Shown here: piece after piece, positions 535 to 15,872 of the stretch
How positions within the stretch are numbered: the first letter of the stretch is position 1
How the letters are laid out: each line of letters begins with the position of its first letter
From: a virus
Taxonomy: Duplodnaviria; Caudoviricetes
DNA: 42,053 bases
Direction: 5' to 3' (one strand)
IMG/VR virus record: IMGVR_UViG_3300033475_001142
Location: 1 to 42,053 of that record
Notes under the pieces: generated by a model
The model's database searches: none
Told to the model about the DNA's origin: nothing
What the model saw: the letters and a program-made list of their open reading frames with translations, nothing else
Translations under genes and position numbers: made by a program

Positions 535-754
535 GCTGTCTTACCCGGTGTATCGGCGCTGGCTGAGCGGCGCCACGCCGTTGGAGGTGGAGGTGCTGCA
601 CGAGACCGGCTCGCAGGCGCTGGTGCGGGTCTGGCGCGAGCCTGGGGCGCCGAAGCAGGAGAGGATCGCGTGGTGGGTGGCGGTCAGCGCGCTCCAGGAC
701 GAGCCGCTGAAGATGCGGCGGCGGCCCAAGCGGTGCCTCCAGGTACAGCGGTGA
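524..754 (+). CDS. Hypothetical protein
   Basis: Overlaps the upstream stop; GTGA overlap with the next gene. Confidence 0.55.
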   Translation: MPAKLSYPVYRRWLSGATPLEVEVLHETGSQALVRVWREPGAPKQERIAWWVAVSALQDEPLKMRRRPKRCLQVQR

Positions 755-960
755 CCGGCGAGGATCTGGAGCGCCAGTTGGTGGCACTCGCCGGGGATCA
801 CATCAGGTCGTTCCAGGCCTACGCCGCGCGCATCGACGCCGATCCGGCGCTGATCGCACACGCGCTCTGGCTGCTCGCCGAGGCGGCCGAGAACCGGCGC
901 CAGGAGATACTGGGCCAGGGCTGCGGCGCCATGACGTACAAACCAACAAGTCACCCGTAA
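751..960 (+). CDS. Hypothetical protein (GTG start at 751)
   Basis: GTGA start/stop coupling; helical sequence (TGEDLERQLVALAG...). Confidence 0.55.
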   Translation: MTGEDLERQLVALAGDHIRSFQAYAARIDADPALIAHALWLLAEAAENRRQEILGQGCGAMTYKPTSHP

Positions 961-984
961 ACGGTCGTTTGCAGAGGTGGCCAG

Positions 985-1191
985 ATGATTTTCCGTTGCC
1001 AGAAATGCGGCGCCCGCTGGCTGGACGCTTCCGAGTGCCTGCGGTGCAGCGCCGATCAGGAGGCTACACAGCACCGCTGCATGCAATGCGGCACAGAGTT
1101 CCTGGCGCGACCTGACTGTCCGCCGATCTGCCCGGATTGCTACCTCGTCCGCACCCAGTTGCTTACCACGCCATATGCAGCGCTGCCTTAA
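985..1191 (+). CDS. Small double zinc-ribbon protein
   Basis: Four CxxC motifs; GAGG RBS upstream. Confidence 0.65.
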   Translation: MIFRCQKCGARWLDASECLRCSADQEATQHRCMQCGTEFLARPDCPPICPDCYLVRTQLLTTPYAALP

Positions 1192-1309
1192 TCGGCCGCC
1201 ATAATCGCCAAAGCCCGCGCCTGGATCGCCTCCGGGGTGCGGGCCAGGGCCGGCCCGGTGTTGCACCGCCGGCCGGCCCGCTCACCGCCGCTTAACCCCA
1301 CGCACGGTC

Positions 1310-1347
1310 CCGTCAGCGGGTCCGTCAAACTCCGTCAAATCCCGTCA
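1310..1347 (+). repeat. Four phased CCGTCA repeats abutting the terL start codon
   Basis: CCGTCA at 1310, 1322, 1332 and 1342. Confidence 0.7.
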
Positions 1348-2690
1348 TGTCCGAAACACAACCGGCCGCCAGGCGGCGGATTGCGCTGCCATTCGCGCCG
1401 CGGCCCTGGCAACTGGAAATGATGGAAGACCCGGCGCCGCGCATCGTGGCCGTGGTCCATCGTCGGGCCGGCAAGTCCACGGCGCTGATGTGGATGGGCC
1501 TGAAGCGGGCGCTGCTCGAGCGAAAGCCCAACCCTCGCGTGGTGCATATCCTGCCCTACGGCGTGATGTGGCACCGCACCGGGCTGTGGGACCAGCTAGC
1601 GGCGGCGGCTGACGCCATTCCGGGCGCCGTGGTCCGGCGATCCGAACTGTCGGTCAGACTGCCCAACGGAGGCGTGTTCCAGGCCGGCGGCGCGGATAAC
1701 GTCGATTCGTGGCGCGGTGGCGGCGCCGACCTGGTGGTGGTCGATGAGTATGACGACACACCGCCCAGCCTGGTCCCGCTGGTGATTGAGCCGATGCTCG
1801 CCGACCGCAACGGGACGCTGGTACGCTCGGGGACGCCGAAAGGGCGCGGCGTGCTGCAGGCAGCCTACGACCGGGCCAAGACGACGCCCGGATACAGCAG
1901 CTACCTGCTGGATTATCGCAAGACCGGCGTGCTGTCCGACGAGGCGATAGACCGCCTCAGAACGGAAATGAGCGACGAGGAGTTCGCCCAGGAACTCGAG
2001 GTCTCCTTCGAGTCACCGAATAGCGGATCGTATTACGGCAAGCTGATGCAGGCGGCCGAGGCCGAGGGACGCATCACCGCGGTGCCGTACGATCCGGACC
2101 TGCCGGTGTGGACCGCTTGGGATCTCGGTGTCGCCGACAGCACCGCCATCTGGTTCGCGCAGGTGACCTGGAGCGGGCAGTGGCGGCTGATCGACTACAT
2201 CGAGGACAGCGGCGCTGGGCTGACGCACTACACCGACCAGATACGTGCCAAGCCTTACCGTGACTACGCGATGCACCTGCTGCCGCACGACGCCGCGGTG
2301 AAGGAGTTGGGCAGCGGCATGAGCCGGACGGAGGTGCTGACGAGCCTTGGGCTGCAGCCGTGGCGCATCGTGCGTCAGCACAGCGTCGCAGACGGGATCA
2401 ACGCGGTGCGGATGGTGTTGCCCAGGGCGTGGTTCGATGCGGAGCGATGCGCCAAGGGCATCAACGCGCTGCGGCATTACCGGCGCGAGTGGAACGAGGC
2501 CGGGCAGACATGGCGCAGCAGTCCGGTGCATGATCACGCTAGCCACGGTGCGGACGCCGCGCGCTATCTGTGCCTTGGTGTGCGTGAGATGCAGCCGCCG
2601 CGGGCGGTGGAGGACACGGGCGATAGTTGGGAAAAGGCATGGCGCAGCCAGGCGCAGCGGGAGCGCGCAGCGGCATGGCGCGTGGCATAA
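1347..2690 (+). CDS. terL: Terminase large subunit
   Basis: Walker A-like HRRAGKS, Walker B VVVDE, coupling motif GTPKG, RNase H-like nuclease WDLG...D and SHGADAARY. Confidence 0.95.
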   Translation: MSETQPAARRRIALPFAPRPWQLEMMEDPAPRIVAVVHRRAGKSTALMWMGLKRALLERKPNPRVVHILPYGVMWHRTGLWDQLAAAADAIPGAVVRRSELSVRLPNGGVFQAGGADNVDSWRGGGADLVVVDEYDDTPPSLVPLVIEPMLADRNGTLVRSGTPKGRGVLQAAYDRAKTTPGYSSYLLDYRKTGVLSDEAIDRLRTEMSDEEFAQELEVSFESPNSGSYYGKLMQAAEAEGRITAVPYDPDLPVWTAWDLGVADSTAIWFAQVTWSGQWRLIDYIEDSGAGLTHYTDQIRAKPYRDYAMHLLPHDAAVKELGSGMSRTEVLTSLGLQPWRIVRQHSVADGINAVRMVLPRAWFDAERCAKGINALRHYRREWNEAGQTWRSSPVHDHASHGADAARYLCLGVREMQPPRAVEDTGDSWEKAWRSQAQRERAAAWRVA

Positions 2691-2705
2691 GCAGGAGGAT
2701 CACAG

Positions 2706-3065
2706 ATGCCGTTTGATGGGTTGCCGGATGGACTGCTGTCTGACTTGGCAAAGCTGAAGGTGGCGCTGGAGGGCGTGAAGAGCCGTGGCCGCTGGTCGAA
2801 CCAGGCGATTGGCGGGCGTGAGATCGGCGGCCGACCGGAACAGGCGCATTGCGCCATTGGGTGGCTGCTGGTGGCAACGGACTGGGACCGTGAGGAGACG
2901 ACCAGGCTGGCACTGGCCTACGTTTATCCGGCTTTGCCTGATACGGCCCGCGATGACCGACAGCGGATTCTGTCGATATCGCAGTACAACGACCGGGGAT
3001 CGCGCAAGCGGGTGGTGCAGCTCTTCGAGGACGCTATGCAGTTGGCGGAGCAGCGGGTTGTGTGA
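2706..3065 (+). CDS. Hypothetical protein
   Basis: AGGAGG RBS; coupled to the next gene. Confidence 0.7.
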   Translation: MPFDGLPDGLLSDLAKLKVALEGVKSRGRWSNQAIGGREIGGRPEQAHCAIGWLLVATDWDREETTRLALAYVYPALPDTARDDRQRILSISQYNDRGSRKRVVQLFEDAMQLAEQRVV

Positions 3066-3772
3066 ATGCCTATGAAGACCAGCTAATCCGGCGGCTGGAT
3101 CTTCGCCGGCAGTTTGACCGATTGGATGCGCGCCAGCGCCGCATCCTCTGCGCGCGATTCAAGCACGATGACACGCTGCGGGACGTTGGTGCGGGAGAGG
3201 GCATCAGCGCTGCTCGGGTTAACCAAATCCTCCTCGACGGCCTGCGGCGAGTTAGACACCGCCTTACGCAGGAGCCGAAACCGCAGAAGCAGCACGATCT
3301 GCGGGCGACGCCGCCACATGAATGGTTCGATAAGGCGGCATTCCTGCGCCATATGGAGCGGCTGCAGCGGCTCAAGCGCGAAGCGGGCGAGCGGGCATAC
3401 GAGAACGAACGGGCCGCTCTCGACCGGCTCATGAGGCGGGAAGAGGAGGCGGGTTATTTTGATCCACCGCCGCCACCCAAGCCACCGCCGCAGAGGCTGC
3501 CGACATGGTTTGAGGTGCAACTGCGCCGCTACCACGAAACGCCGGAGACGGTGAAGCAGAGCGCCGGTGATGCGTACGACCGATGGGTGGCGCGCAGCCT
3601 GGTCTACAAAGGGATGCAGATGGCGCTGGTTGTGATGCCGAGGGCCTGCACGCTCTATGACGGCTCGCACATCGTCCAGATCGAGCCTGACAGGCCGATA
3701 TGGCTGCCGGCGACCCTGGTGTCGCAGATGCTGCCCAACGCCGCGGTCCTGGCGCACGCCAGCCCAGCATAG
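3062..3772 (+). CDS. Sigma-70 region-4-like HTH protein with unknown C-terminus
   Basis: LDARQRRILCARF...TLRDVGAGEGISAARVNQI resembles the sigma region 4 HTH. Confidence 0.7.
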   Translation: MNAYEDQLIRRLDLRRQFDRLDARQRRILCARFKHDDTLRDVGAGEGISAARVNQILLDGLRRVRHRLTQEPKPQKQHDLRATPPHEWFDKAAFLRHMERLQRLKREAGERAYENERAALDRLMRREEEAGYFDPPPPPKPPPQRLPTWFEVQLRRYHETPETVKQSAGDAYDRWVARSLVYKGMQMALVVMPRACTLYDGSHIVQIEPDRPIWLPATLVSQMLPNAAVLAHASPA

Positions 3773-3794
3773 ACAGCGACTGGATCACACAACA

Positions 3795-3953
3795 ATGCCA
3801 TCATCCAGCAAGGCTCAGAAACGCACTATGCAGGCTGCGGCCCATAGCCCTGCGTTTGCGAAGAAGGTCGGCATTCCAGTGTCGGTGGCGAAAGACTTTG
3901 TGGCAGCCGACAAAAAGCGCGGCACCAGGAAGCTGCCTGAGCGGAAGAAGTGA
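3795..3953 (+). CDS. Small basic phage protein (52 aa)
   Basis: MPSSSKAQKRTMQAAAHSPAFAKKVGIP...; this type of protein is often seen near head genes. Confidence 0.7.
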   Translation: MPSSSKAQKRTMQAAAHSPAFAKKVGIPVSVAKDFVAADKKRGTRKLPERKK

Positions 3954-4723
3954 GCGGCTCGCGCAACGCCCTGCTCGGTGACTGGTTTCAGCCACCGGAC
4001 GACCCGCAGGCCAACGTGCTGCTGCGTCAGACGCCGCTGGCGCCGCGGCCATCCTACGCCAGCGCCGCAGATCAGGCGTGGGCGGCGATCCAGGCCAAGC
4101 TGGATGAGCAGCAGCGCATATCGCAGGAGCGCGGGCTGTGGACCGGCGGCCAGGTGTGGGAGGGTGGTCATCCGACGACTAAGGGCGCAGTGGACGCGAC
4201 GCGGCAGGTTGGTGATGCTCTGCTCATGGGCACAACGACACCAGGATTGCGGGCATTCCACGGGAGCCTCGAGGACTTCAGCACGCTGGATCGCTCGAAG
4301 GTTGGCTCGGGTGCCATGAGCGATCGATGGACCGCAGATGCGAAACACGCGGACGAATACTACCTGACCACCAACCCGGAACATGCCGAGCATTATGGGC
4401 CGGTCGTCCATGAGTTTGAGATCGGTAAGCCGCTTTATCAGAAGGACGCCAAGGCCGATTTAGAGGCGTGGGCCAAGTCTGAGGGATATGACAGCGCGCA
4501 GAAGCACCTCGATGAATACTACGATGGCAACATCTACTCGGCGCTGGATATGGATAATTACCTGAAGGATGCGCTGAGCGAGGCTAAGGCGGCAGGCTTC
4601 CCTGGCGTGCATGTATCGCTGGGCGACCTGAAGAACCCGCGCCGCAAAGCTTTTGGCGACTTCATCGTGTTGCACGATCCGTCTGTTGCAACGCGCGTGG
4701 CTGCGCGCCAACGCAAGGACTGA
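3950..4723 (+). CDS. Protein with a C-terminal ADP-ribosyltransferase-like (ART-PolyVal-like) domain
   Basis: FHGS..DF..LD.SKVGSG...YYLTTNPEHAEHY pattern. Confidence 0.55.
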   Translation: MSGSRNALLGDWFQPPDDPQANVLLRQTPLAPRPSYASAADQAWAAIQAKLDEQQRISQERGLWTGGQVWEGGHPTTKGAVDATRQVGDALLMGTTTPGLRAFHGSLEDFSTLDRSKVGSGAMSDRWTADAKHADEYYLTTNPEHAEHYGPVVHEFEIGKPLYQKDAKADLEAWAKSEGYDSAQKHLDEYYDGNIYSALDMDNYLKDALSEAKAAGFPGVHVSLGDLKNPRRKAFGDFIVLHDPSVATRVAARQRKD

Positions 4724-4845
4724 CCAGACCTTCCGGGCCGGGACGGACCCACTCTGCCACGGGGAGTGGCGCCGTTGGCAGGCGTGTGGTCACCGAGCGC
4801 TCCGGTTCGCCGGTTCGGTGACGGAAACCCACAGCGATTGATCCG

Positions 4846-5214
4846 ATGAGCGGCAGCACGATCAACCCATTGTTCGGCATGGCGATGCAGAGCGGCGCCG
4901 GCTCGCTGTTCGACCGTCCTGGCCCGACCGCATCAGGCCTCGTGGTGCCGGGCAACATCAACACCCACCGCAGGCCCGTGGTGCGCAACGCCGATGGCAG
5001 CATCTCCACAGTGCGCAGCATGAACTTCGAGGACGAGCACGGGCGCCAGGTGCTGGTGCCGACCGTCATCGAAGGTCGCGGCGTCGTGCCGCCGGACGAA
5101 GCGATCAAATACTACTACGCAACAGGTCAGCATCTCGGCATCTTTGATACGCCGGAGAGCGCGGAAGCCTATGCGCAGTCGCTGCATGAAAGTCAGGCGA
5201 CGGAATACCGATGA
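4846..5214 (+). CDS. Conserved phage protein, function unknown
   Basis: GNIN..RPVV.NADGSISTVRS...VLVPTV...TGQHLGIFDTPE.A..YA..LH; ATGA overlap with portal. Confidence 0.7.
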   Translation: MSGSTINPLFGMAMQSGAGSLFDRPGPTASGLVVPGNINTHRRPVVRNADGSISTVRSMNFEDEHGRQVLVPTVIEGRGVVPPDEAIKYYYATGQHLGIFDTPESAEAYAQSLHESQATEYR

Positions 5215-7391
5215 GCGAAGCACTCGCAGTACCGCAGGAGCGCTACGGGGCGCACCGCCTGACAGGCCACATCGGCCCGGGCAGCACCGATCCGGCAGCG
5301 GCCGTCGATGTCTATCCCGGCGACCTCGGCAAACTGCACAGCGAACTGAAACAGTGGTTCGAGGACAGCGAGCAGGCATCGCGCCACGAGCGCGAGTTCG
5401 CCGAGCAGTCGCGCAATTACTACGACGGCTACCAGTGGACCACCGAGGAACAGAAAGCCCTGCGCGAGCGTGGCCAGCCGGAAATCACCATCAACAAGAT
5501 CCACGACAAGGTGGCGATGCTGTGCGGCCTCGAGCGGCGCGCCCGCACCGACCCGAAAGCCTTCCCGCGCACGCCATCGGAAGAGGACCGCGCCGACGCC
5601 GCCACCCAGGCGCTGCGCTACATCGCCGACGACAACAACTATCCGCTGGCACGCTCGGCGGTGTTCGAGGAGATGCTGGTCGAGGGTTACGGCGGCGTGG
5701 AGCTGACGCTGGAGGACGACGGCCAGGGCGGCACCTCCATCGTCATCACCCACGTGCCGTGGGACCGGCTGTGGTACGACCCGCACAGCCGACGCCCGGA
5801 CTTCAGTGACGCGCGCTATCTCGGCGCCGTGGTGTGGATGGACCGCGACGCGGTGGAGGAACTGTATCCCGGTGCGGCGGACGTGATCGACGCGTCGTTT
5901 CAGTCAGGTTCCGGCATCGACAGCTACAGCGACCGGCCCGACAACGTGGTGTGGAGCGACAACCGCCGCAGCCGCGTGCGTGTCGTGCAATGCCACTGGG
6001 TGCGCAGCGGCACATGGTGGCAGGCAACCTACACCAAGGGCGGGCTGCTCACCGATCCGGTGGCCTCGCCGTTCAAGGACCGCCACGGCAAGTCAGCCTG
6101 CGGCATCCTGCTGCAGTCGGCCTATATCGACCGCGAGAACCGCCGCTACGGCATGGTGAGGAATTTGATTTCGCTGCAGGACGAAATCAACAAGCGGCGG
6201 TCCAAGGCGCTGCATCTGCTCAGCGTGCATCAGACGATTGCCGAGAAGGGCGCCGTCAAGGACGTGGACGCGGCGCGGCAGGAACTCGCGCGGCCGGACG
6301 GCTATGTCGAGGTCAACGCCGGCATGCGGTTTGAGGTGATGCCGGGCGGCGAGATGGCGCTCGGACAGTTTCAGTTGTTACAACACGCCACGGCCGAAAT
6401 GCAGTTGTCCGGGCCGAATGCGGCGATGTCGGGCACCGAAAGCCGCGAGCTGAGCGGCCGCGCGATCCTGGCGCAGCAGGCGGGCGGGGCCACGCAGAAT
6501 GAGCCGCTGGCCGACAGCCTGCGCTGGTGGTCGCGGCGCGTCTACGAGATGGCGTGGATGGCGGTCCGGGAATACTGGACCGGGCCGAAATGGCTGCGCG
6601 TGACTGACGATCTGGGCGAATTGCGCTGGGTCGGCCTCAACCGCCCGGTGACGGTGGGTGAGCAGATGGCAGCGCAGATCGCCAAGCTCGACCCGCAGCA
6701 ACAGCAGATGGCGATGCAGCAACTGCAGCAGGCGGCCGCCAACCCGCAGACGGCGATGCAGTTGCAGCAGGTCGTCAATATCGAGAACGACATCGCCGGC
6801 CTCGATGTCGATATCACCATCAGCGAGGGCGTCGATGTGCCCGCGATGGCGGCGGAGAACTTCCAGACGCTGGTGCAGCTCGCCGGGATGCAGCCGGGAC
6901 TGATCCCGCCCGAGGTGCTGATCGCCGCGAGCAGTCTGCGCGACAAGGACCAGTTGCTGGCGATGATGAAGCAGCACGCCGAGGCCAAGGCGGCGCAGCA
7001 GCAGAAGATGGCGCCGCTGATTGAGCGCAACGCGGTGGCCGAGGTGTCGCAGAAGGAGGCCAAGGCACAGGCGGACTTCGCGCTGGCCAAGGAGCGCGGC
7101 ATCAACTCGGTCAAGAACCTGCACTCGATGCATTCCGACTTCAGCGCGCCACCGGCCGGCCAGCCGTGGGTGGCGCCCGATGCGCCGTCCGCACCCGGCA
7201 CCGCGGGCGGCGTGCCGCCGCTGACGCCGATGGATCTCGCGCACCAGATGGCCGACCTGCACACCAAGCGCGCCGACCTCGACGCCAAGCAGGCCAAGGC
7301 GGCATCTGACCGCGCCTCCGTCGTGCAGAAGCTGGCGCAGGCGCAGGCCACGCTCAACCCGCCACAGCCAAGGCCCACACAGCAACGGTAA
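5211..7391 (+). CDS. P22-like portal protein
   Basis: 726 aa; YYDGYQW, ITINKI, DEINKRRSK and SGRAI motifs; Q-rich C-terminus; lies after terL. Confidence 0.92.
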   Translation: MSEALAVPQERYGAHRLTGHIGPGSTDPAAAVDVYPGDLGKLHSELKQWFEDSEQASRHEREFAEQSRNYYDGYQWTTEEQKALRERGQPEITINKIHDKVAMLCGLERRARTDPKAFPRTPSEEDRADAATQALRYIADDNNYPLARSAVFEEMLVEGYGGVELTLEDDGQGGTSIVITHVPWDRLWYDPHSRRPDFSDARYLGAVVWMDRDAVEELYPGAADVIDASFQSGSGIDSYSDRPDNVVWSDNRRSRVRVVQCHWVRSGTWWQATYTKGGLLTDPVASPFKDRHGKSACGILLQSAYIDRENRRYGMVRNLISLQDEINKRRSKALHLLSVHQTIAEKGAVKDVDAARQELARPDGYVEVNAGMRFEVMPGGEMALGQFQLLQHATAEMQLSGPNAAMSGTESRELSGRAILAQQAGGATQNEPLADSLRWWSRRVYEMAWMAVREYWTGPKWLRVTDDLGELRWVGLNRPVTVGEQMAAQIAKLDPQQQQMAMQQLQQAAANPQTAMQLQQVVNIENDIAGLDVDITISEGVDVPAMAAENFQTLVQLAGMQPGLIPPEVLIAASSLRDKDQLLAMMKQHAEAKAAQQQKMAPLIERNAVAEVSQKEAKAQADFALAKERGINSVKNLHSMHSDFSAPPAGQPWVAPDAPSAPGTAGGVPPLTPMDLAHQMADLHTKRADLDAKQAKAASDRASVVQKLAQAQATLNPPQPRPTQQR

Positions 7392-7467
7392 GCGCGCGGC
7401 AGCCGAGGTCGGAGGCCTCGGCGTTCGGAAGCTACCCTAGCCGCGCCGCCAAACTCTAGGAACTAAC

Positions 7468-8316
7468 ATGGCTAACGACAAGCTCGAGGCTTTCCTGTCT
7501 GCCAACGCGCCGGACGCGCCCGCACCGCCCGCCACAGAGCCGCCAGCGGCGCCGCCACCGGAGCCGCCGCATCAGGAGCCGGACAAGCCGCAGCCCACCC
7601 AGGCGCCGCCCAAGGCGCCGGAAACCGACGAGGACGAGCCGCCACGCGATGCCCGCGACGGTGAGCCGGCGGTGCCGCGCCAGGCGCTGATCGACGAGCG
7701 CACCAAGCGGCAGGACTGGAAGGACCGGGCATCACGCGCCGAGGCGCTGGCCGAGGAGCGCCGCCAGCAGCTCGAGCAGCTGCAGAATCAGCGCGAGGCA
7801 GCAGCACGGCCACAGCCGCAGCAGGAGCCGCAGTTCCGCTTTGCAGATCCGCAGCAGGACCCGGCGCTGTATGCCGCGCAGCAGGCGCAGAATGCGGTTT
7901 ACAACACCAGCGAGCTGCTGGCGCGGCAGTTGCACGGCGACGAGGTCGTGGACAAGGCGGTGGAGGAGTTCATCGGGCTGGCGCAACGCGATCCGACGCT
8001 GTGGCACAGGATGCAGCAGCAGAGGCACCCGTTCGAATGGGTGCGCCGCGAGGTCGAGCGCCAGAAGCTGCTGCACGAGATCGAGGACCCGGAGAAATAC
8101 AAGGCGAAGCTGCGCGCCGAGTGGGAAGCCGAGCGGGCAGCACAGATGCCGCCGGCCGTAGCTACACCCGCCAACACGCCGCCACCCAACATGCCGCCGT
8201 CGCTGGCCAACGTGCGCTCCGCCGCGCCACGCACCGCACCGCAATGGTCCGGCCCGCTCAGCGATACGCAGGCCGCCAACTATTTCCGCGAGCACCGGAT
8301 GGCCAACCGCCGCTGA
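7468..8316 (+). CDS. Scaffolding protein
   Basis: Pro/acidic N-terminus, VP..AL.DER.KRQ coiled coil, PPSLA near the C-terminus; between portal and capsid. Confidence 0.8.
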   Translation: MANDKLEAFLSANAPDAPAPPATEPPAAPPPEPPHQEPDKPQPTQAPPKAPETDEDEPPRDARDGEPAVPRQALIDERTKRQDWKDRASRAEALAEERRQQLEQLQNQREAAARPQPQQEPQFRFADPQQDPALYAAQQAQNAVYNTSELLARQLHGDEVVDKAVEEFIGLAQRDPTLWHRMQQQRHPFEWVRREVERQKLLHEIEDPEKYKAKLRAEWEAERAAQMPPAVATPANTPPPNMPPSLANVRSAAPRTAPQWSGPLSDTQAANYFREHRMANRR

Positions 8317-8343
8317 CGCTCGCGTCCCACTGACCATAGCCGC

Positions 8344-8465
8344 ACCGGCCGCCGCGGTTAATCGGGCGTCTCCCCAGGCACGTGGTTCCTGCCGCCGAGG
8401 TTACGGGCGCATCGGCCGCTGACGGGCCGCTTTCCGTCGCACCTGCCGCCGAGGTCTATCGGGCG
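8344..8465 (+). promoter_or_regulatory. Three copies of a hairpin/pseudoknot element in the capsid gene leader
   Basis: stem-GCCGCCG-stem-N3-4-CGGGCG at 8344-8368, 8388-8409 and 8441-8465, with a compensatory stem change. Confidence 0.7.
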
Positions 8466-8507
8466 AAACCCAGAGGAAAGAACCCATGCCCAATAGGCAC
8501 CTGAACT

Positions 8508-9620
8508 ATGGCCGACATGAATGTAACCCCGGCAAGACCGGGACTAACGCCGATCCAATGGCAAGAAGAATTCTGGGTCGAATACCTACGGGATAACCAG
8601 TTTACCCCGTATTTCGGGTCCGATATGGACTCGATGATCCAGCTACAGACTGACCTTACACGCAAATCAGGCGACTCAGTAGTTTTCCCGACCGTCCGCG
8701 CTCTCGCGGGTGCCGGCGTCACCGGCAACACCGTCCTCGAGGGCAACGAAGAGGTCATCAATGCCCGCTCCCTGAAAGTGCCGGTTGGCGTCATTCGCCA
8801 CGCCGTCGCTGTATCGGACTGGGACAAGCAGAAATCCGTCATCGATCTGTTGCAGGCCGGGCGGACCAACCTCAAGAACTGGGCCTCCAACAAACTCCGC
8901 AGCGACATCATCGTCTCGCTCGGTGCCATCACCGCCGATGGCGACGTGCAGATCAGCTACGGCTCGGCGAGCGCCGCACAGCGCAACACATGGCTTGTCA
9001 ACAACGCCGACCGCGTGCTGTTCGGCGCCTCCAAGAGCAACGCGGTGTCAGGCGTCTATGCCACCGCGCTGACCACCATCGACAACACCGCCGACAAGCT
9101 CACCGCGGCGCAACTCACCCTGGCCAAGCGTATCGCGCGCACCGCAAAGCCCGCCATCCGGCCAATCCGCATCAACAACGATGAGGAATGGTTCGTGGTG
9201 TTCGTGCCGTCCCTGCCGTTCCGCGACCTGATGCAGGACCCGACCATCGTCAACAGCCTGCAATATGCCTGGGACCGCGGGCGCAATAACCCGCTGTTTA
9301 CCGCAGGCGACATCCTGTGGAATGGCATGATCATCCGCGAGATCCCGGAGCTGCCGGTGCTCGCCGATGTCGGCGCCGGCGCCACCGTCGATGCCGCTGC
9401 ATCCTACCTCTGCGGCGCACAGGCCATCGGCATCGCCTGGGCACAGCGGACCACCACCATCACCAACTCACGCGACTACGGGTTTTTCGAGGGCGTTGGC
9501 GTGATGGAGATCAGGGGCGTGGCCAAGCTGCGGTTCGGCACCGATCCCACCGTTGACCAGACCAAACCGGTGGACAACGGCGTGGTTACGATCTGGTCGG
9601 CCGCAGAGCCTGACGCGTAA
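8508..9620 (+). CDS. Major capsid protein (N4-gp56/DUF4043-like)
   Basis: DL..KSGDSV.F, LEGNEE, NPLFTAG, LCGAQA.GIAWAQ and DYGF motifs. Confidence 0.92.
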   Translation: MADMNVTPARPGLTPIQWQEEFWVEYLRDNQFTPYFGSDMDSMIQLQTDLTRKSGDSVVFPTVRALAGAGVTGNTVLEGNEEVINARSLKVPVGVIRHAVAVSDWDKQKSVIDLLQAGRTNLKNWASNKLRSDIIVSLGAITADGDVQISYGSASAAQRNTWLVNNADRVLFGASKSNAVSGVYATALTTIDNTADKLTAAQLTLAKRIARTAKPAIRPIRINNDEEWFVVFVPSLPFRDLMQDPTIVNSLQYAWDRGRNNPLFTAGDILWNGMIIREIPELPVLADVGAGATVDAAASYLCGAQAIGIAWAQRTTTITNSRDYGFFEGVGVMEIRGVAKLRFGTDPTVDQTKPVDNGVVTIWSAAEPDA

Positions 9621-9630
9621 GGAGACACAC

Positions 9631-10182
9631 ATGGCACAGCAACCACACGAGAACGGCGACCGGGAGCGCCCGCATCCTGGCGCGGGTCCGGCAGCCCGCA
9701 CGCCGGAGCAGGACCACACGCCGCGCCGCGAAGAGCGGGAGGAGCGGGAACGGCAGGAGCGCCGCAGGCCGCAACAGTCCGCCGCGGACAAGGCGGCCGT
9801 AGAGAAGGCGCAGGCCGAGCAGCGGGAGGCAATGGCGGCCGCGTCCATCGGCGCGCAGATCATCCTCGATTACAATGAGGATGGCAGCAAAGGCGCGCGC
9901 GGCGGCGCTGGTGGCACCATCGAGGAGAACACCATGGCGCGGGACGCGCACCTGGTCGCGCTGGGCCTCGATCCCATCGCACCGAGCGGCCCGCCACCGA
10001 CGCCGGAGGCACTCGAGGCACGGAAGCGGCGCGAGGAGCAGCAGGCGAAGATAGCCGCCGATCCGCAGTTCGTCGCGCCACCGAGCGGCAAGGCGACGCG
10101 CATGTCGTCGCTGGCAGCGGGCATTGCCCAGGAGGACCTGCCGGACCCGGAGCCGCCGCCCGTGCGCGGCGCGGCGGACTGA
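9631..10182 (+). CDS. Hypothetical, largely disordered protein
   Basis: AAGGAG RBS, ATG at 9631 directly after the capsid gene. Confidence 0.75.
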   Translation: MAQQPHENGDRERPHPGAGPAARTPEQDHTPRREEREERERQERRRPQQSAADKAAVEKAQAEQREAMAAASIGAQIILDYNEDGSKGARGGAGGTIEENTMARDAHLVALGLDPIAPSGPPPTPEALEARKRREEQQAKIAADPQFVAPPSGKATRMSSLAAGIAQEDLPDPEPPPVRGAAD

Positions 10183-10200
10183 CGAGCGAGGGCGCGTTCA

Positions 10201-11148
10201 ATGACCACAGTTGCGGTAATCGCTGAACGCGCCCTGCGCCGGCTTGGCGTCTCCGTCGTGCCGGTTGCCGACCGGCCGCTGCTCAACACCAGCGTCTCGC
10301 CCGGCGATATCGCCAACAACGCGCTGGTCGATTTGGGCATCATCGCTACCGACGAGGTGCCGCTGTCGCAGGCCACGGTGGTTGCAACCGCAACCATCGC
10401 CACCACGGCGCTGCAGAAACTCGGCGTGATCGCCGCCGACGAAACACCGATTGCCGCCGACCAGACGCTCGCCCAGAACACCGTGCAGGCCGTCCATTCG
10501 TCGCTCGTGGCGCAAGGCATCTGCGACTGGACATCGGCGGAAATCACCGACGCGGTGTCGGAAGAATATGCGGGCCTCACCGCATTCCATCTCGCATCGG
10601 CATTCGGCAAGCCGGCCGATCCGGCGGTCATCGCGCTGCTCGAGGGCCGCATCGCCACCGTGGCGCGCGTGATCCGGGCAAAGAACCTGGCGCTGGCCAA
10701 GGTCACCGAGGTGCAGGCGTCGCTCGCCTCGCAGGCGTCGGTGTCGTGGCCCAACACCGGCATTCCGATGGCTGTGGCAGAGGAATACACGCGGCTCGTG
10801 GCGATGTCGCTGGCGTCGTCATTCGGCAAGCAGGTGGACCCGCAGATGCTGCCGGTGATGGAGGCGCGGGTGCGGCGCATGGCGCAGGTGCTGGCGGCGC
10901 CGGAGAGCGCGGAGAACGCCGTGATGGCGGTGCATGACAATCTGGTCGCGCGCGGTGTGGCGCGGTGGACCTCGCAGGACATACCCGGTCCCGCTGAGAT
11001 GCCGTATGAGCAGCTCGCCGCGAACCGCCTGGCGCCGCTGTTCGACAAGCGCGCTGATCCCGCGGAGGAGATGCTGGCCAACCGGGCGCTGGCGCAGATC
11101 GTGGCGCTGGAGCCGTCAGGCCGGCCCGTGCGGGTGGATTACTTCTAG
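10201..11148 (+). CDS. Head-tail adaptor (P22 gp4-like) with internal triplication
   Basis: Repeated IA..AL..LG(V/I) and L.A.G...W....IP.....Y..L.A..LA..F motifs; gene position. Confidence 0.65.
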   Translation: MTTVAVIAERALRRLGVSVVPVADRPLLNTSVSPGDIANNALVDLGIIATDEVPLSQATVVATATIATTALQKLGVIAADETPIAADQTLAQNTVQAVHSSLVAQGICDWTSAEITDAVSEEYAGLTAFHLASAFGKPADPAVIALLEGRIATVARVIRAKNLALAKVTEVQASLASQASVSWPNTGIPMAVAEEYTRLVAMSLASSFGKQVDPQMLPVMEARVRRMAQVLAAPESAENAVMAVHDNLVARGVARWTSQDIPGPAEMPYEQLAANRLAPLFDKRADPAEEMLANRALAQIVALEPSGRPVRVDYF

Positions 11149-11967
11149 ATGGCAGACGGGCTGGCGTTTGGCAGCACTGCGGCGGCCTGTCCGGACGACG
11201 GGCTGGACTTTGGTGGCACGCTGCCGCCGCCGACAATCCCGCCAGATCCGACCGGTGAGAACTGGCGCGGGCCACCGGGGCCTCCGGGGCCACAGGGGCC
11301 GGCTGGACCGGCCGGAGTTGACGGCCAGGACGGAGCTGACGGTGTAGACGGTGCGACCGGCCCACAGGGTCCGAAGGGCGATACCGGTGCGACAGGCGCC
11401 ACGGGTGCCACTGGGCCACAAGGCCCGGCCGGTCCCGCCGGTGCGGACGGCGCGTCCATCACCATCTCGGACACTGCGCCGACGCCAACCGCCGGCGCGC
11501 TGTGGTTCGATTCAGCCGGCACGCAGCTTTACGTTGGCTACAACGACGGCAACAGCACGCAGTGGGTCATCGCGACGAATACCGGCGGGGCGCCGATCTC
11601 CTACGCCCAACTGCCGACCGAGGTGGCGCAGGTGCCGATAGCGTTTCCGTTCAGCGGCAGGCCCGCGGCGAATGCCAGCGTGTATGTGCCGATGGCGATG
11701 GCGCTGACCGTGGCGAGCGGCCTGGCGGGCAGCGTCGGCTATGCGGTGACCAACCCGACTGTGGCGGCGACCTTCACGCTCACCCGCATTCGCTCGGGCG
11801 CCACGCTGGCGCTGGGCACCGTGCAGATCGGCACGGGTGGTACGGTGACGCTGGCGGGTGCCGGCGGCTCGCTGGCGATTGGCGACGTGCTGCAGCTCAC
11901 CGCTCCGACCGCGCAGGACGCGACGCTCGCGGACGTGGGTCTGAGCATCATGACGCAGCGGGTGTAG
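11149..11967 (+). CDS. Collagen-like fibre protein
   Basis: 21 Gly-X-Y triplets (11269-11457), then [21 protein letters not shown]. Confidence 0.85.
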
Positions 11968-11971
11968 CGCG

Positions 11972-13012
11972 ATGGCCTGGACATTCGGTGACGGGTTCGA
12001 CCTCTATGCAGCAACCGCTGATGCGGTGGCGGGTTACTGGGACAGTGGCAGCACGGGTTTTTTTACGCTTCAAGCGGGCCGCTTCGCTGGCGGCCAGGCA
12101 TTACAGATTAGCAATCAAAACGGCACCATCGCCGTTACAAAAAGCAGCGGGGTTAACGACGCCGCGCATCATATCGTCGTTGCCTTCCGTCAGACCGCTG
12201 TGCTCAGCGGCACGACGCTCGGTATGTATCTCCAGTTCAGTGATGGCGCGACCAACCAGTGCTGCATCGTGTTCAGGTCGGACGGCGTGGTTCTGCTCAC
12301 CTCAGCCACACCAGCCGGCTCGGTGCTCGCGACCTACACCGGAGCGGTAACGGCGGCGAACACCTGGTTCGCGTTCGAGTTCGAGGTGGTCATCTCACCC
12401 ACAGCAGGGCGGTTCCGCGCGCGGAAGAACGGCAACGCCAGCGACGATTTCGATAGTGGCGCGACACTGAACACACGTCCAGGCGCCAATTCTTACGCGA
12501 ACAAGCTTCAGGTGGGGATGCAAGCTGCTGTTGGCGCGCAGCAGATCGACGACCTGCTCTGGCGCAGCGACGCCGCCAGCGTGCCGTTCGTGGGCGACAT
12601 CCGCTGCTACACCCGCATGCCCGCGAGCGATGTGAGTGTGCAGTTCAGCCGCAATACGGGCGCCACCAACTTCTCGGCCGTGGATGAGCCGCAGCAGAAC
12701 GGCGTGACGGATTACGTGTTCAGCGCTACCGCAGGCCAGAGCGATCTCTACGGCATCGCCGCACTGGCTGCGACGCCGGTCAGCGTTGTCGCGGTGACCA
12801 CGCGCGGCTTCATCCAGAAGAGCGACGCCGGCACCCGCAACGGCGCGGTGCAACTCAAGAGTGGCGCGACCACGGTGCAGAGCACCAGCACGGCGCTGAG
12901 CACGTCATGGCAGTGGTTATGGCGCACTGACGCGACGGACCCTGCGACCGGTAGCACGTGGACGCCGGTTGCGGTGAACAACGTTAACATCGGGCCGGTG
13001 GTGACCGCCTGA
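11972..13012 (+). CDS. Putative virion beta-sandwich (lectin-like) protein
   Basis: Beta-rich, Thr/Ala/Gly-rich sequence within the fibre cluster. Confidence 0.6.
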   Translation: MAWTFGDGFDLYAATADAVAGYWDSGSTGFFTLQAGRFAGGQALQISNQNGTIAVTKSSGVNDAAHHIVVAFRQTAVLSGTTLGMYLQFSDGATNQCCIVFRSDGVVLLTSATPAGSVLATYTGAVTAANTWFAFEFEVVISPTAGRFRARKNGNASDDFDSGATLNTRPGANSYANKLQVGMQAAVGAQQIDDLLWRSDAASVPFVGDIRCYTRMPASDVSVQFSRNTGATNFSAVDEPQQNGVTDYVFSATAGQSDLYGIAALAATPVSVVAVTTRGFIQKSDAGTRNGAVQLKSGATTVQSTSTALSTSWQWLWRTDATDPATGSTWTPVAVNNVNIGPVVTA

Positions 13013-13794
13013 TGCCAACAACGTGGAACCCCTCCGATCTTGCTAACTGCACACTGAGCGGCGGCAATCTTGTCGCGACCATGACGGGGGCCAACCCTGG
13101 CGTGCGTAGCCTGGATCGTGTGCTGACAACTGGTAAATACTACTGGGAATGTGCGTTTACTACGCTGACGAACGCTGCCACTGGCGTGTGTCTCGGCACG
13201 GCGACATTCGCTGGAATGGCATCGAGCGCACTGCTTGGTGTCGTGGCGTCGCAAGGCGGTATTGTGACGCTGAACGGCGTCAGCCAGGGCAACTTGCTGG
13301 GTGCGTTCACCGCAGGCGATGTGTGTTGCATCGCGCTTGATGTAGCCGGTAGTCAGGTCTGGTTCAGACGCACAGCGGCCGGAAACTGGAACGGTAATGC
13401 CAGCAACAATCCGGCAACGGGTGTTGGTGGGCTTAGTCTGCGTGGGTTCTGTGGTCCGGGTTACGATCTCTATGCGTTTGCCGGTAGTGGTTCAGGTGCA
13501 GCCATCACCGCAAATTTCGGTGCGACCGGTTACAGCGGCACGGTGCCGAGTGGTTTCGTCAATATCCCGACAGGCACAGCGGTAGTCACCAACGAGGCGG
13601 CGACTACCATCGCCGCAGAGCAGTGGGGCAGCGGCACGCCCGACATGTGGGCGACGCAGGCGGCTGTCGAGATGTGGGCCTCGGTGCAGGCGACCTCCGG
13701 CACCAGCATGGTTGCCACAATGGTCTCGCTGGAGATGTGGGCGCCGGTCGTCAGTGCGGTCACCGCACCGCCCCGCGTGTTCATACTGGCCTAG
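13012..13794 (+). CDS. SPRY/concanavalin-like domain virion protein
   Basis: TLSGGNL, TGKYYWE, GDV.CIALD and ANFGA..Y..VPSGF motifs. Confidence 0.7.
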   Translation: MPTTWNPSDLANCTLSGGNLVATMTGANPGVRSLDRVLTTGKYYWECAFTTLTNAATGVCLGTATFAGMASSALLGVVASQGGIVTLNGVSQGNLLGAFTAGDVCCIALDVAGSQVWFRRTAAGNWNGNASNNPATGVGGLSLRGFCGPGYDLYAFAGSGSGAAITANFGATGYSGTVPSGFVNIPTGTAVVTNEAATTIAAEQWGSGTPDMWATQAAVEMWASVQATSGTSMVATMVSLEMWAPVVSAVTAPPRVFILA

Positions 13795-13804
13795 AGGACG
13801 CGCC

Positions 13805-14983
13805 GTGTTCGATTTCGCCAATTCACCAACCGTCGGCCAGGTCGTCAGCAACGGCGGCGTCTCGTACACCTGGGACGGCGCGAAATGGGCACCAACGGCC
13901 GCGGGCGCCACGGGCGTGTCGAGCTTCAACACCCGCACCGGCGCGGTGACGCTGAGCAGCGGCGACGTGACCGGCGCGCTGACTTACACGCCATACAACA
14001 GCACCAACCCCTCCGGCTACCAGACGGCGGCGCAGGTCGCGACGGCGGTGGCGCCATATGCCAACAACGACGGGCGCAACCTCATCCACAATGCGTTGTT
14101 CAACATCGCGCAGCGTGGCACGGGGCCGTTCAATAGTGGAGGTTACACGGCGGATCGCTGGAACCTGGCGCTGTCTGTGGACACGTCCAGCGTAAACATA
14201 GCCGCTCTGGGTAGCACCGCCATTACGCAGATCGGCGACGAGGCTGCGACAAATGCTCTAAGCACCACCGTCGCAGGCAATGCGGGAGCCAGTGCTTTCA
14301 CCTTCGTTTCCCACAAGATCGAGGACGTGCGGCGCCTTGCCGGTAAGACGGTCACGGTGTCGTTCTGGGCTAACGCCGCTGGCGCGACAAAACTTGGCCT
14401 GAACATCTTGCAGGATTTCGGCTCTGGTGGCTCGCCATCGGGAGGCGTCTGGATGACGGCTGTTTCGTTTACGCTCACCGGAACATGGACGCGGTATAGC
14501 GCGACGTTCGCGTTACCGTCGATTGCCGGGAAGGTGCTCGGGACGAACAACAATCACCTGACGAACCTGGCGTTCTGGATGTCGTCGGGTTCCAGCAGCG
14601 CGGCCGTCGCAGGCAATCCTGGCGTCCAATCCGGCACCATCAACCTGTGGGGCGTCCAGCTAGAGATCGGCAGCGTTGCCACGCCGCTGGATTACGGCGG
14701 CTCGCCGCAGCAACAGCTCGCCGAATGCCAGAGGTTCTATCAGACTGGCAGCTTCACTTATGGCGCATATTCACAGGCAGGCTGGGGCGCGCAGGTCGGT
14801 ATAATGTTGCCGGTTTGTATGCGGGCGTCGCCGACTATCGCAAGCAACTTCAGCTCCGCAGTGAATGTTACCGGCCAAGCCATAACTGCGGCGGGAGCAA
14901 GCGGAGTGACTGTTTACGGATCAACCACTGCAACCGGACAGGTCAACATGCAGGGCACTTTCGCCGCATCGGCGGACCTGTAA
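13805..14983 (+). CDS. Tail fibre / receptor-binding protein with a CBM-like domain (GTG start at 13805)
   Basis: F.NSPTVGQ...YTWDGAKW, VSSFNTRTGAVTL, RNLIHNA.F.IAQRG, VQLE.GS.ATP, ECQRFYQ. Confidence 0.8.
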   Translation: MFDFANSPTVGQVVSNGGVSYTWDGAKWAPTAAGATGVSSFNTRTGAVTLSSGDVTGALTYTPYNSTNPSGYQTAAQVATAVAPYANNDGRNLIHNALFNIAQRGTGPFNSGGYTADRWNLALSVDTSSVNIAALGSTAITQIGDEAATNALSTTVAGNAGASAFTFVSHKIEDVRRLAGKTVTVSFWANAAGATKLGLNILQDFGSGGSPSGGVWMTAVSFTLTGTWTRYSATFALPSIAGKVLGTNNNHLTNLAFWMSSGSSSAAVAGNPGVQSGTINLWGVQLEIGSVATPLDYGGSPQQQLAECQRFYQTGSFTYGAYSQAGWGAQVGIMLPVCMRASPTIASNFSSAVNVTGQAITAAGASGVTVYGSTTATGQVNMQGTFAASADL

Positions 14984-15295
14984 ATGCAGCTCATCTTCGC
15001 GAATGCAGAGAACACAACGATCCAGGCGACGCTGGACGACAAGGAGACGCTCGGCAATCTCACCGGCCCCGGCGTGTTCTACGTGCCCACCGATCCGGCA
15101 AATGCCGAATACGCCGAGATCGTCGCGCAGGGTCTCAAGGTCGAGGCATACGTGCCGCCGCCGGAGCCAGTGCCCGAGGCCGTGGATCTGCCGCCGGTGA
15201 TGCCGACCGACCCGACGCACGCCACGCCGAAAGCCTACGTGGACACCGAGATCGCCGCGCTCGCCGCCCGCATCGAGGCACTGGAAAGGCGCTAG
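14984..15295 (+). CDS. Putative tail fibre-associated/chaperone protein
   Basis: VPTDPANAEYAEI motif directly after a fibre gene; HATPKAYVD. Confidence 0.6.
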   Translation: MQLIFANAENTTIQATLDDKETLGNLTGPGVFYVPTDPANAEYAEIVAQGLKVEAYVPPPEPVPEAVDLPPVMPTDPTHATPKAYVDTEIAALAARIEALERR

Positions 15296-15296
15296 C

Positions 15297-15872
15297 ATGC
15301 AACAGTGCATCACCCTGCCGTATATGCGGACCTCGCCGATCCAGCTACCGCGGCGCGACCTCGTGCTGTCCGCCTCCGACAGCCTGGCACTCACCGTCAC
15401 CGTCGTGGAGCGCGATCACCCGTCCGCGCAACTGCTCATCCTCAGCACCGCGGCAGGCGGCCCGTCGATGCAGCTCGTGCTGTGGGAAGACCTCGACCAG
15501 CCCAACCTCTGGTGCGACTACCAGCGCCCCGGATCGCGCTACGGCACCGTGCTGCATTCGTCGTCCGGCGTCGCCAGCGCCGCGCCAGGCAGTTGGGACT
15601 TCGCCTTGCCCACCGGCACCTTCTACGGCTTCCCGCCGCGCTGCGGCTGGTCGGTCCTGCTGCTGTGGGACGACGGCGCCAAGAGCGAGGTGCTGGGGCA
15701 GGGCATCATGCATCTGCTGCGGCCCTATGTGACCGGCCTGTCGCTCGTCCCGACGCCACCGACCGAGCCGCCGATCATCCCGCCGGGCTACACTTCGCTT
15801 GCCGGCCTTCTCACCGACGACAACCGGCCGATCTGGACCACAGACACTGACGAATGGTTGGAGACCTCCTGA
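15297..15872 (+). CDS. Hypothetical tail protein
   Basis: Coupled ORF in the tail module; beta-rich. Confidence 0.65.
   Translation: MQQCITLPYMRTSPIQLPRRDLVLSASDSLALTVTVVERDHPSAQLLILSTAAGGPSMQLVLWEDLDQPNLWCDYQRPGSRYGTVLHSSSGVASAAPGSWDFALPTGTFYGFPPRCGWSVLLLWDDGAKSEVLGQGIMHLLRPYVTGLSLVPTPPTEPPIIPPGYTSLAGLLTDDNRPIWTTDTDEWLETS

What the first reader, a model, noticed from the sequence alone, without database searches (positions are those of the whole stretch)
8344..8465. Triplicated, covarying hairpin/pseudoknot RNA motif in the major capsid leader
Seen: ACCG-GCCGCCG-CGGT-taat-CGGGCG, CCT-GCCGCCG-AGG-tta-CGGGCG and ACCT-GCCGCCG-AGGT-ctat-CGGGCG. The loop and the 3' hexamer are invariant, while the stem covaries (G-C versus T-A). 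Loop CGCC can pair with the downstream GGCG, giving an H-type pseudoknot. Inference: a tandem cis-regulatory RNA, such as protein-binding sites for capsid or scaffold autoregulation or an antitermination loading site. I cannot match it to a family I know.
Basis: seen in the sequence. Interest (0 to 1): 0.75.

Follow-up and report, generated by a model that had tools for sequence, protein, structure and literature searches.

The report
Permutable pseudoknot array before capsid gene
The gap in front of this phage's major capsid gene holds four back-to-back small RNA units, predicted to fold as pseudoknots, three of them copies of a module found in 150 of 156 sampled related phage lineages with matched base changes and also reused in reversed order by unrelated phages; the array likely shields the capsid message from decay so that far more capsid than portal protein is made.

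Summary
Three units lie at 8344-8368, 8388-8409 and 8441-8465. The phage is a complete 42 kb Pam1-like podophage.

The unit occurs in 150 of 156 capsid-protein clusters, almost only on the sense strand. Both predicted helices covary. The second helix has five pairs and an invariant bulged G.

In most relatives the array abuts the scaffold ribosome-binding site and scaffold and capsid genes are coupled. In this clade it has moved to the capsid leader. It stays intact 620 nt from the capsid start behind an HNH insertion. It precedes head genes of unrelated families and occurs circularly permuted inside scaffold coding regions.

Nearly every placement lies 5' of the capsid ORF and 3' of portal, so a decay barrier is the best reading (0.4). 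Rivals are a protein-bound operator (0.22) and ribosome loading (0.17). A site for the NusG paralog or for scaffold autoregulation is disfavoured.

There is no Rfam match and my searches found nothing in print. This scan already noted similar, probably the same, units on other genomes (e1-9714703, e1-10039594). Function is untested.

The parts
7468..8316 (+). head scaffolding protein gene (upstream gene; its own leader has no core unit)
   Evidence: Between portal and capsid genes; 22% identity over 169 aa to the Pam1 scaffold, E 4e-6 pairwise; no unit in 7392-7467
8344..8368 (+). Unit 1: 4-bp stem, loop GCCGCCG, 4-nt spacer, tail CGGGCG; predicted H-type pseudoknot with 5-bp second helix and bulged G
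8388..8409 (+). Unit 2: same core, 3-bp stem, 3-nt spacer
   Evidence: stem alone is weak (-0.8 kcal/mol duplex)
8413..8440 (+).
   Evidence: the unit at this position changes both helices together among close relatives
8441..8465 (+). Unit 4: same core as units 1 and 2, 4-bp stem
8466..8507 (+). 42-nt A/C-rich spacer with an SD-like GAGGA (8473) before an out-of-frame ATG (8486, 36-codon ORF) and a weak AGG before the capsid start
   Evidence: the short ORF was not shown to be conserved
8508..9620 (+). major capsid protein gene (PF13252 / phrog_334, Pam1-like)

Best explanation
The four units are predicted to fold in the late mRNA as compact back-to-back pseudoknots that likely act as a barrier to decay coming from the 5' side, so that the capsid part of the message would outlast the portal part and supply the much larger amount of capsid protein a head needs. 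Shown: the units exist, are kept on the sense strand by compensatory changes in both helices, and lie between portal and capsid ORF in nearly all placements found. Inferred: folding in vivo; cleavage or trimming of the polycistronic RNA upstream; stalling of a 5'-3' nuclease (RNase J) or of 5'-end-dependent RNase E scanning at the knot; and that the invariant G1, C6-G3 pair and bulged G make tertiary contacts that stiffen the knot. In the ancestral layout the array protects scaffold plus translationally coupled capsid. In this clade, and in the phages with the in-frame permuted copy, it would protect the capsid ORF alone. A secondary effect of keeping the ribosome-binding site open is likely where the array abuts it.
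For: (1) Placement tracks the capsid ORF. 122 of 127 distant clusters have units in the scaffold leader and none in the capsid leader; the scaffold-capsid gap is 2-75 nt in all but two of them. 28 of 29 clusters of this clade have units in the capsid leader. The clade is nested among scaffold-leader lineages (SH-aLRT 100, midpoint root, quick tree of 73 rows) and 4 early-branching members carry both. (2) Distance tolerance: 7 loci keep 3-4 intact core units about 612-626 nt from the capsid start behind an antisense HNH-type gene (6 measured, 7 aligned). (3) Position tolerance: a circularly permuted form lies 49-127 nt inside the scaffold ORF in 25 of 46 distinct loci of an unrelated capsid family, with synonymous codons constrained. 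(4) The partner is unlikely to be one phage protein: the same core precedes head genes of phrog_1357, 283, 10, 544 and 371/133 modules. (5) Shape can replace sequence: pseudoknot-like folds of other sequence fill gaps between core units above chance (51 vs 14.9 shuffled; 25 vs 12.1), and unit 3 covaries. (6) Precedent: T4 gene 32 mRNA is cut by RNase E at -71, next to its pseudoknot at -67, the upstream part decays fast and gene 32 mRNA is the most stable T4 mRNA (PMC3014915 section 24; that section credits translation, not the knot, for stability). Breaking a pseudoknot lowered IRES mRNA accumulation about twofold in E. coli (PMC9458429 section 23). Pseudoknotted viral xrRNAs stop RNase J1 (PMC5760640 passages). 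(7) All 5 alphaproteobacterial genomes tested that carry a prophage of this capsid family have a near full-length RNase J-like gene (1 of 5 over the curated cut-off).
Against: There is no functional or expression evidence. The near-invariant 13-nt core, kept even under circular permutation, looks more like a recognition surface than a generic roadblock. In scaffold leaders the SD starts 0-5 nt after the last unit in 70 of 84 cases, which suggests a ribosome-level role (or only compaction). An A/U-rich cleavage site upstream is only modestly enriched in scaffold leaders (0.55 vs 0.41 locus average) and absent in this clade (0.35-0.40). A terminator-like hairpin lies just upstream in only 25 of 157 leaders and not in this window. 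The units are much smaller than xrRNAs and show no ring. Nested-fold prediction does not favour the region (z +1.44) and prefers the second helix alone for units 1, 2 and 4; that program cannot model pseudoknots. The HNH insertions may have spread by homing into already divergent arrays, so persistence at a distance is suggestive only. Single-sequence pseudoknot candidates also precede scaffold genes of Pseudomonas and Vibrio phages, whose hosts lack RNase J (recalled).
Confidence: 0.4

Rival explanations
1. Protein-bound translational operator. Free capsid (or scaffold) subunits bind the knot with its bulged G and repress translation when assembly is saturated, as gp32 does on the T4 gene 32 pseudoknot.
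For: Near-invariant core: loop G1 286 of 289, tail G2 286 of 287, C6-G3 286 of 286. The core survives circular permutation. Tandem copies would allow cooperative binding. The distance to the start in this clade, mostly 38-66 nt, resembles the 67 nt of T4 gene 32. P22 scaffold autoregulation is published (titles seen in the reference list of PMC5529062; content recalled).
Against: The same core is used with capsid and scaffold proteins of different PHROG families. Arrays sit 620 nt from the start or 49-127 nt downstream of it. The last unit contains an anti-SD 4-mer in only 9 of 157 leaders. The unit is lost from the scaffold leader in this clade and absent from P22 gene 8.
Confidence: 0.22
2. 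Ribosome-loading (standby) element. The knots plus the A/U-rich linkers bind protein S1 or the 30S subunit and feed it to the nearby start, raising translation of head genes.
For: The last unit ends 10-20 nt before the scaffold start in 83 of 129 leaders and the SD follows within 5 nt in 70 of 84. Spacers are 75-77% A/U. 29 of 65 distinct capsid leaders in this clade use a non-ATG start. The tisB standby site needs a 5' structure and S1 (PMC6690012 abstract).
Against: It does not explain copies inside the coding region or 620 nt away. In E. coli the pseudoknots of the IGR IRES were not needed for ribosome recruitment (PMC9458429 abstract).
Confidence: 0.17
3. Assembly or localisation tag. The module tethers head-gene mRNA to the portal or nascent procapsid so that scaffold and capsid are made where the shell nucleates.
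For: It fits every placement and the conserved surface. An obligate portal-mRNA interaction is mentioned as a hypothesis for P22, with little evidence (PMC5529062 passage).
Against: There is no direct evidence. Portals and capsids of the carrier phages are of different families, and P22 lacks the unit.
Confidence: 0.07
4. Antitermination element acting on RNA polymerase, with the phage NusG paralog or alone (put/EAR-like, recalled).
For: The window encodes a NusG paralog. The model is tolerant of position, and terminators occur next to some arrays.
Against: A NusG homolog was found in only 10 of 31 array-bearing genomes (9 of 24 near-complete). The terminators lie upstream of the array, too early to be helped. 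The array sits mid-operon at translation starts and moves with the capsid gene.
Confidence: 0.06
5. A double-stranded DNA binding site, or a functionless repeat.
For: CGCCG and CGGGCG form a loose inverted repeat.
Against: 355 sense vs 10 antisense hits in 66.5 kb of leaders. Spacing varies from 5 to 10 nt and more. G-U pairs occur, the flanking stem covaries (81% vs 18% permuted), and the order of the halves can be reversed.
Confidence: 0.02

Closest known systems
T4/T2 gene 32 mRNA pseudoknot (PMC3014915, passages and section 24 read)
   Same: A small two-helix pseudoknot in a phage mRNA leader, tens of nt before the start, followed by an unstructured stretch; a highly expressed, stable message processed next to the knot.
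   Different: Single copy, different sequence, in front of an ssDNA-binding protein that is its proven ligand. Here 2-5 tandem copies sit before head genes, the ligand is unknown, there is an invariant bulged G, and a permuted form exists.
Exoribonuclease-resistant RNAs (xrRNA) of flaviviruses (PMC5760640, passages read)
   Same: Tandem pseudoknotted units in viral RNA; proposed protein-free block to 5'-3' decay; xrRNAs block bacterial RNase J1 in vitro.
   Different: xrRNAs have a three-way junction and a ring around the 5' end and lie in 3' UTRs of eukaryotic viruses. This unit is about 22-28 nt, has no junction, and resistance is untested.
tisB ribosome standby site (PMC6690012, abstract and opening text read)
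   Same: A 5' structure plus a single-stranded stretch upstream of a start site.
   Different: One element on a chromosomal toxin mRNA, controlled by an antisense RNA; no tandem repeats; S1 dependence is shown there and untested here.
P22 scaffolding protein autoregulation (titles seen; paper not held; content recalled)
   Same: Post-transcriptional control at the scaffold gene of a podophage head operon.
   Different: P22 1-8000 has no core unit, and in this window the array is in front of the capsid gene, not the scaffold.
Rfam GP20-a/GP20-b candidate motifs before phage scaffold genes (name from note e1-8345222 and recall)
   Same: Candidate cis-regulatory RNAs before scaffold genes.
   Different: No Rfam hit of any family on the window or on the leaders in 27 related loci; the source paper's supplement could not be read.

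Membership tests
H-type pseudoknot | Hairpin stem supported by covariation | tested here: met
   With no stem required, 81% of 351 anchors have 3 bp vs 18% with permuted partners (max 24%); many stem types
H-type pseudoknot | Loop pairs with a strand outside the hairpin, supported by compensatory changes | tested here: met
   Leave-one-pair-free test: deviants that still pair are 4 of 4 (4/5), 5 of 5 (5/4), 7 of 12 (3/6), 18 of 33 (7/1, 14 of the rest G-A or A-A); pair 6/3 never varies and so says nothing
H-type pseudoknot | Both helices form at the same time in solution | not testable with these tools
   ViennaRNA folds nested structures only; needs probing or a structure
Any Rfam 15 family | Score at or above the gathering threshold | tested here: not met
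   0 hits in the window; only two chance hits at E 1.2 and 5.7 on the minus strand; only group I introns and a tRNA in 27 related loci
T4 gene 32-type autogenous operator | Pseudoknot 5' of the RBS followed by an unstructured stretch | tested here: met
   42 nt A/C-rich spacer in the window, with only weak hairpins predicted
T4 gene 32-type autogenous operator | Lies before an ssDNA-binding protein gene | tested here: not met
   The downstream gene is the major capsid protein
T4 gene 32-type autogenous operator | Gene product binds the knot and represses its own translation | not testable with these tools
   needs binding and reporter assays
xrRNA | Three-way junction and ring around the 5' end | tested here: not met
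   The unit has two helices only; an enclosing helix around unit 1 was not above permuted controls (11 of 18 vs 8.9)
xrRNA | Protein-free resistance to 5'-3' exoribonucleases | not testable with these tools
   needs an RNase J1 or Xrn1 assay
Site for a phage NusG-type antiterminator | Co-occurs with the NusG paralog | tested here: not met
   10 of 31 array-bearing genomes have a NusG match
P22-type scaffold operator | Present at the scaffold start, including in P22 | tested here: not met
   Absent from the window's scaffold leader and from P22
Translational switch that sequesters the SD | Unit pairs with the SD or start codon | tested here: not met
   Anti-SD 4-mer in the last unit in 9 of 157 leaders; only the last unit and only SD complements were tested

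The most novel reading that the evidence does not exclude
A 13-nt-core RNA module, natural in two circularly permuted forms, is a general phage device that sets head-protein stoichiometry: a minimal prokaryotic counterpart of xrRNA, or a tag read by a conserved host factor, shared by unrelated head modules across several host groups and moved by evolution to wherever the capsid ORF needs it, even inside another gene's codons.
Probability: 0.3. Interest if true: 0.85.

Novelty: new variant of a known kind. Interest (0 to 1): 0.64.

Why it matters
How a single late transcript yields about a dozen portal subunits but hundreds of capsid subunits (established knowledge) is rarely explained at the RNA level. 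This is a tiny, sharply defined, widespread RNA unit at that boundary. It is present in cultured phages (Pam1, Pam5, Pan3, CBW1004C-Prop1) and in prophages of Caenibius, Paracoccus and Rhizobium, so it can be tested directly with compensatory mutants that nature has already supplied. Natural circular permutation of a 25-nt module, and its embedding in coding sequence, would interest RNA structure specialists. If it blocks decay, it would be a very small portable mRNA stabiliser for bacteria.

Tried and rejected
Rfam at gathering and E-value level gave no meaningful family.

Literature searches listed no paper on this motif; others returned 0 papers. In Fremin et al. 2023 (PMC10690425) I read passages and searched supplementary files 3-6 for the core strings and family names, with no hit. 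Its alignment archives could not be searched, so the motif may be among its unnamed candidates. For Weinberg et al. 2017 (PMC5737381) I saw passages only; the supplement was unreadable. The P22 autoregulation paper is not held.

Genome collection: the protein scan found no relative, and the pattern scan showed no convincing tandem array in 120 loci. The capsid family was not found in 400 genomes drawn from the class of G029 (one not scored). It was found in 6 of 401 from the class of G028; core units were seen in 3 of those 8 loci, from 2 genomes.

No RNA holder was listed for the region; this is no evidence either way.

An enclosing helix around unit 1 was not above the permuted control. The pseudoknot candidate in the window's scaffold leader (7397-7422) was not supported as a class (18 vs 12.8 shuffled) and is not evidently conserved. 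No promoter-like site was found in 1-16000, and no sense-strand terminator near the array.

Three 'scaffold leader' descriptor hits in this clade (L396, L405, L436) are non-canonical and far from the start. I rejected them, so the 7 'both' become 4. More distant capsid relatives KLEP18-1 and RHph_Y1_10 show no core unit in the intergenic stretches printed. No complex or structure prediction was run.

Full report
Setting. The window is a complete 42,053-base virus record with direct terminal repeats. It has the gene order terminase, P22-like portal (5211-7391), scaffold (7468-8316) and major capsid protein (8508-9620; PF13252, phrog_334). A GcrA-like gene and prophage relatives in Caenibius, Paracoccus and Rhizobium point to an alphaproteobacterial host (inference). 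The closest cultured relatives are Pam5, CBW1004C-Prop1, Pan3 and Pam1, at 36-44% capsid identity.

Observation. The three units are at 8344-8368, 8388-8409 and 8441-8465 and are the only strict stem-bearing hits in the window. None of 500 whole-window shuffles gave two within 130 nt, and none of 20,000 local shuffles gave two. A fourth unit of different sequence lies at 8413-8440. Among close relatives the unit at that position changes both helices together. Rfam has no match.

Conservation sample. Four capsid-protein scans of IMG/VR gave 306 loci. Of these, 281 had the capsid 5' end and at least 300 nt upstream, and they fell into 156 clusters at 90% identity. The hits were ranked by protein only, but the query alignments were seeded from motif-bearing loci, so the sample is not fully unbiased. 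A descriptor found 355 units in 150 of 156 clusters, against 10 on the opposite strand of the same 66.5 kb and 10 in 151 kb of capsid coding sequence. Pam1, Pam5, Pan3 and CBW1004C-Prop1 carry one or two units before the scaffold gene. The Caenibius, Paracoccus and Rhizobium elements carry two or three.

Structure. Anchoring on loop and tail alone, 81% of 351 anchors have a 3-bp flanking stem, versus 18% when partners are permuted. Freeing one loop-tail pair at a time gave: pair 4/5, G-C 286 and A-U 4; pair 5/4, C-G 286, A-U 3, U-G 2; pair 3/6, C-G 285, seven other pairing types and five mismatches; pair 7/1, G-C 286, U-A 8, A-U 8, G-U 2, fourteen G-A or A-A and one A-C. Loop G1, loop C6 and tail G2 and G3 are almost invariant, loop position 2 is free, and tail G2 is left unpaired. 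On a gap-free alignment of 73 units of one length, 98.5% of cells pair and both helices show two-sided changes; those units were chosen by the descriptor, so that figure leans towards the structure. Counts are clusters, not independent events. The predicted fold is an H-type pseudoknot: 3-5 bp stem, 2-nt first loop, 5-bp second helix with a bulged G, and an A/U-rich 2-5 nt last loop. Simultaneous formation of both helices is inferred; nested folding cannot show it and does not favour the region.

Where it sits. In 122 of 127 clusters at 35-55% identity to the window's capsid, the units lie in the scaffold leader and none lie before the capsid gene. The scaffold-capsid gap is 2-75 nt in nearly all of these. 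The last unit ends 10-20 nt before the scaffold start in 83 of 129 leaders (start codons were picked by script, some wrongly), and the SD follows within 5 nt in 70 of 84. In the window's clade, 28 of 29 clusters have the array before the capsid gene, mostly 38-66 nt from the start; only 4 also have it before the scaffold. A quick tree of 73 of the 156 proteins nests this clade (support 100) among scaffold-leader lineages, with the double carriers branching early. This fits duplication into the capsid leader followed by loss at the scaffold, but the root is midpoint only. Seven loci keep three or four intact core units about 620 nt from the capsid start behind an antisense HNH-type gene; arrays are 72-93% and inserts 81-97% identical among them. 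A terminator-like hairpin with a U-tract lies within 30 nt upstream in 25 of 157 leaders, against 0 of 1,248 control positions.

Beyond this family. Of 80 flanked hits to a single-unit pattern (123 found), 43 lay near a capsid gene of this family. ORFs from 21 of the other 37 were scanned. Ten loci had major head or scaffold genes of phrog_1357, 283, 10, 544 or 371/133, one lay before a small terminase gene and one before a portal gene. About twenty look like chance matches in coding sequence. In phages with phrog_1357 capsids the order is reversed. Of 80 metagenome loci, 16 were dropped for short upstream sequence and 18 as near-duplicates. In 25 of the remaining 46, CGGGCG precedes the hairpin by 2-14 nt (mostly 5-9), the stem is 5-8 bp with 12 types, only one has a downstream tail, the tail lies 49-127 nt after the scaffold ATG (21 measured), and controls gave 0 hits. 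Selecting on the protein motif alone, 12 of 18 matches use all four synonymous codons that build the unit, while in the same phages' capsid genes ACG is 23% and GCC 41% of their codon families. The constraint is therefore on the RNA. That these are circular permutants of one fold is inferred. A Firmicutes host is inferred from the LQLFA-type N-terminus (recalled). P22 itself has no unit.

Mechanism. Four placements must be explained: scaffold leader with coupled capsid, capsid leader, 620 nt upstream of the capsid start, and inside the scaffold ORF. All lie downstream of portal and upstream of the capsid ORF; the two hits before terminase and portal genes are exceptions. A steric operator or a local standby site explains only the first two placements. 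A site for the phage NusG paralog fails co-occurrence (10 of 31 genomes). A barrier to 5'-side decay explains all four and has the right sign. It needs no phage protein, which fits reuse by unrelated head modules, and it tolerates pseudoknots of other sequence in the array (where some hits are terminators or missed core units). Precedents: processing next to the T4 gene 32 knot (PMC3014915 section 24), lower mRNA accumulation after breaking an IRES pseudoknot in E. coli (PMC9458429 section 23), and xrRNA blocking RNase J1 (PMC5760640 passages). RNase J-like genes are present in 5 of 5 candidate host genomes tested. Against it: the invariant core suggests a ligand, the SD abutment suggests a ribosome role, an upstream A/U-rich cut site is weak or absent, and there are no RNA data. 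I put the barrier at 0.40, a protein-bound operator at 0.22, ribosome loading at 0.17, an assembly tag at 0.07, antitermination at 0.06 and a DNA site at 0.02. Before reading earlier scan notes I had the operator first and the barrier at about 0.2. The notes raised the stabiliser reading, and the placement tests above are what moved the odds.

Known and new. It works most like the T4 gene 32 leader knot or, if the barrier is real, like a minimal xrRNA. It is a member of neither by the features tested. Ten literature searches found no description. Unread supplements of PMC10690425 and PMC5737381 could hold it as an unnamed candidate, and subscription journals are not covered. This scan has noted tandem pseudoknot leaders before head genes on at least six other genomes, two of them probably this same unit; I could not compare sequences. 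A words search of the scan found no note on a permuted form of such a unit. Verdict: a real, widespread, uncatalogued cis-acting RNA module; new variant of a known kind; interest 0.64.

Noticed in passing
L410:4063-4275, L433:1221-1444, L452:4970-5188, L466:4456-4666, L467:4984-5194: Small group I introns (Rfam RF00028 above gathering score) interrupt the major capsid gene at two different sites in close relatives.
   Followed up: partly
L434:2817-3440 and L444, L446, L449, L455, L463, L467: An antisense HNH-type gene (label from its motifs, by eye) is inserted between the array and the capsid RBS. Long insertions also lie between scaffold and array in other relatives.
   Followed up: yes
capsid start codons, L396-L474 and kin; window 8508: 29 of 65 distinct capsid leaders in this clade have TTG (16), GTG (9), ATC (3) or ACC (1) at the position of the start codon, at normal SD spacing; possible non-canonical starts for the most abundant protein.
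   Followed up: partly
window 8473-8596: An SD-like GAGGA and out-of-frame ATG (8486) open a 36-codon ORF over the capsid start. Several relatives have a second SD-like AAGGAG about 10 nt after the last unit with no start codon.
   Followed up: partly
window 7397-7422: A single-sequence pseudoknot candidate in the scaffold leader (6-bp second helix); conservation not shown.
   Followed up: yes
L860, L867, L874, L883, L884, about 190-220 nt into the scaffold ORF: A second hairpin with the GCCGCCG-type loop (coding QAAAA) and a lone CGGGCG or TGGGCG 50-90 nt upstream; may be a long-range copy of the permuted unit. L866, L874 and L897 have variant loops.
   Followed up: no
L753, L771, L759: Single units directly before an SD and start of a small terminase gene (L753), a portal gene (L771) and an unassigned gene before large terminase (L759).
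   Followed up: partly
L838 (PAE2), L841 (VvAW1), L846 (Pascal), L273 (Pam1): Mini-pseudoknot candidates of unrelated sequence just before scaffold starts of cultured phages; PAE2 and VvAW1 by script, Pascal and the two extra ones in Pam1 by eye.
   Followed up: partly
window 3062-3772, 31243-31731, 36051-36629, 37718-38332, 19106-19657: A sigma-70 region 4 protein between terminase and portal, a GcrA-like regulator, a NusG paralog, a PEP-CTERM protein and an Asp/Asn beta-hydroxylase-like gene in this phage.
   Followed up: no
scaffold leaders, e.g. L522, L639, L685, L271: An intrinsic-terminator-like hairpin and U-tract 0-20 nt before the first unit in 25 of 157 leaders, leaving no room for a promoter; implies read-through or processing.
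   Followed up: partly
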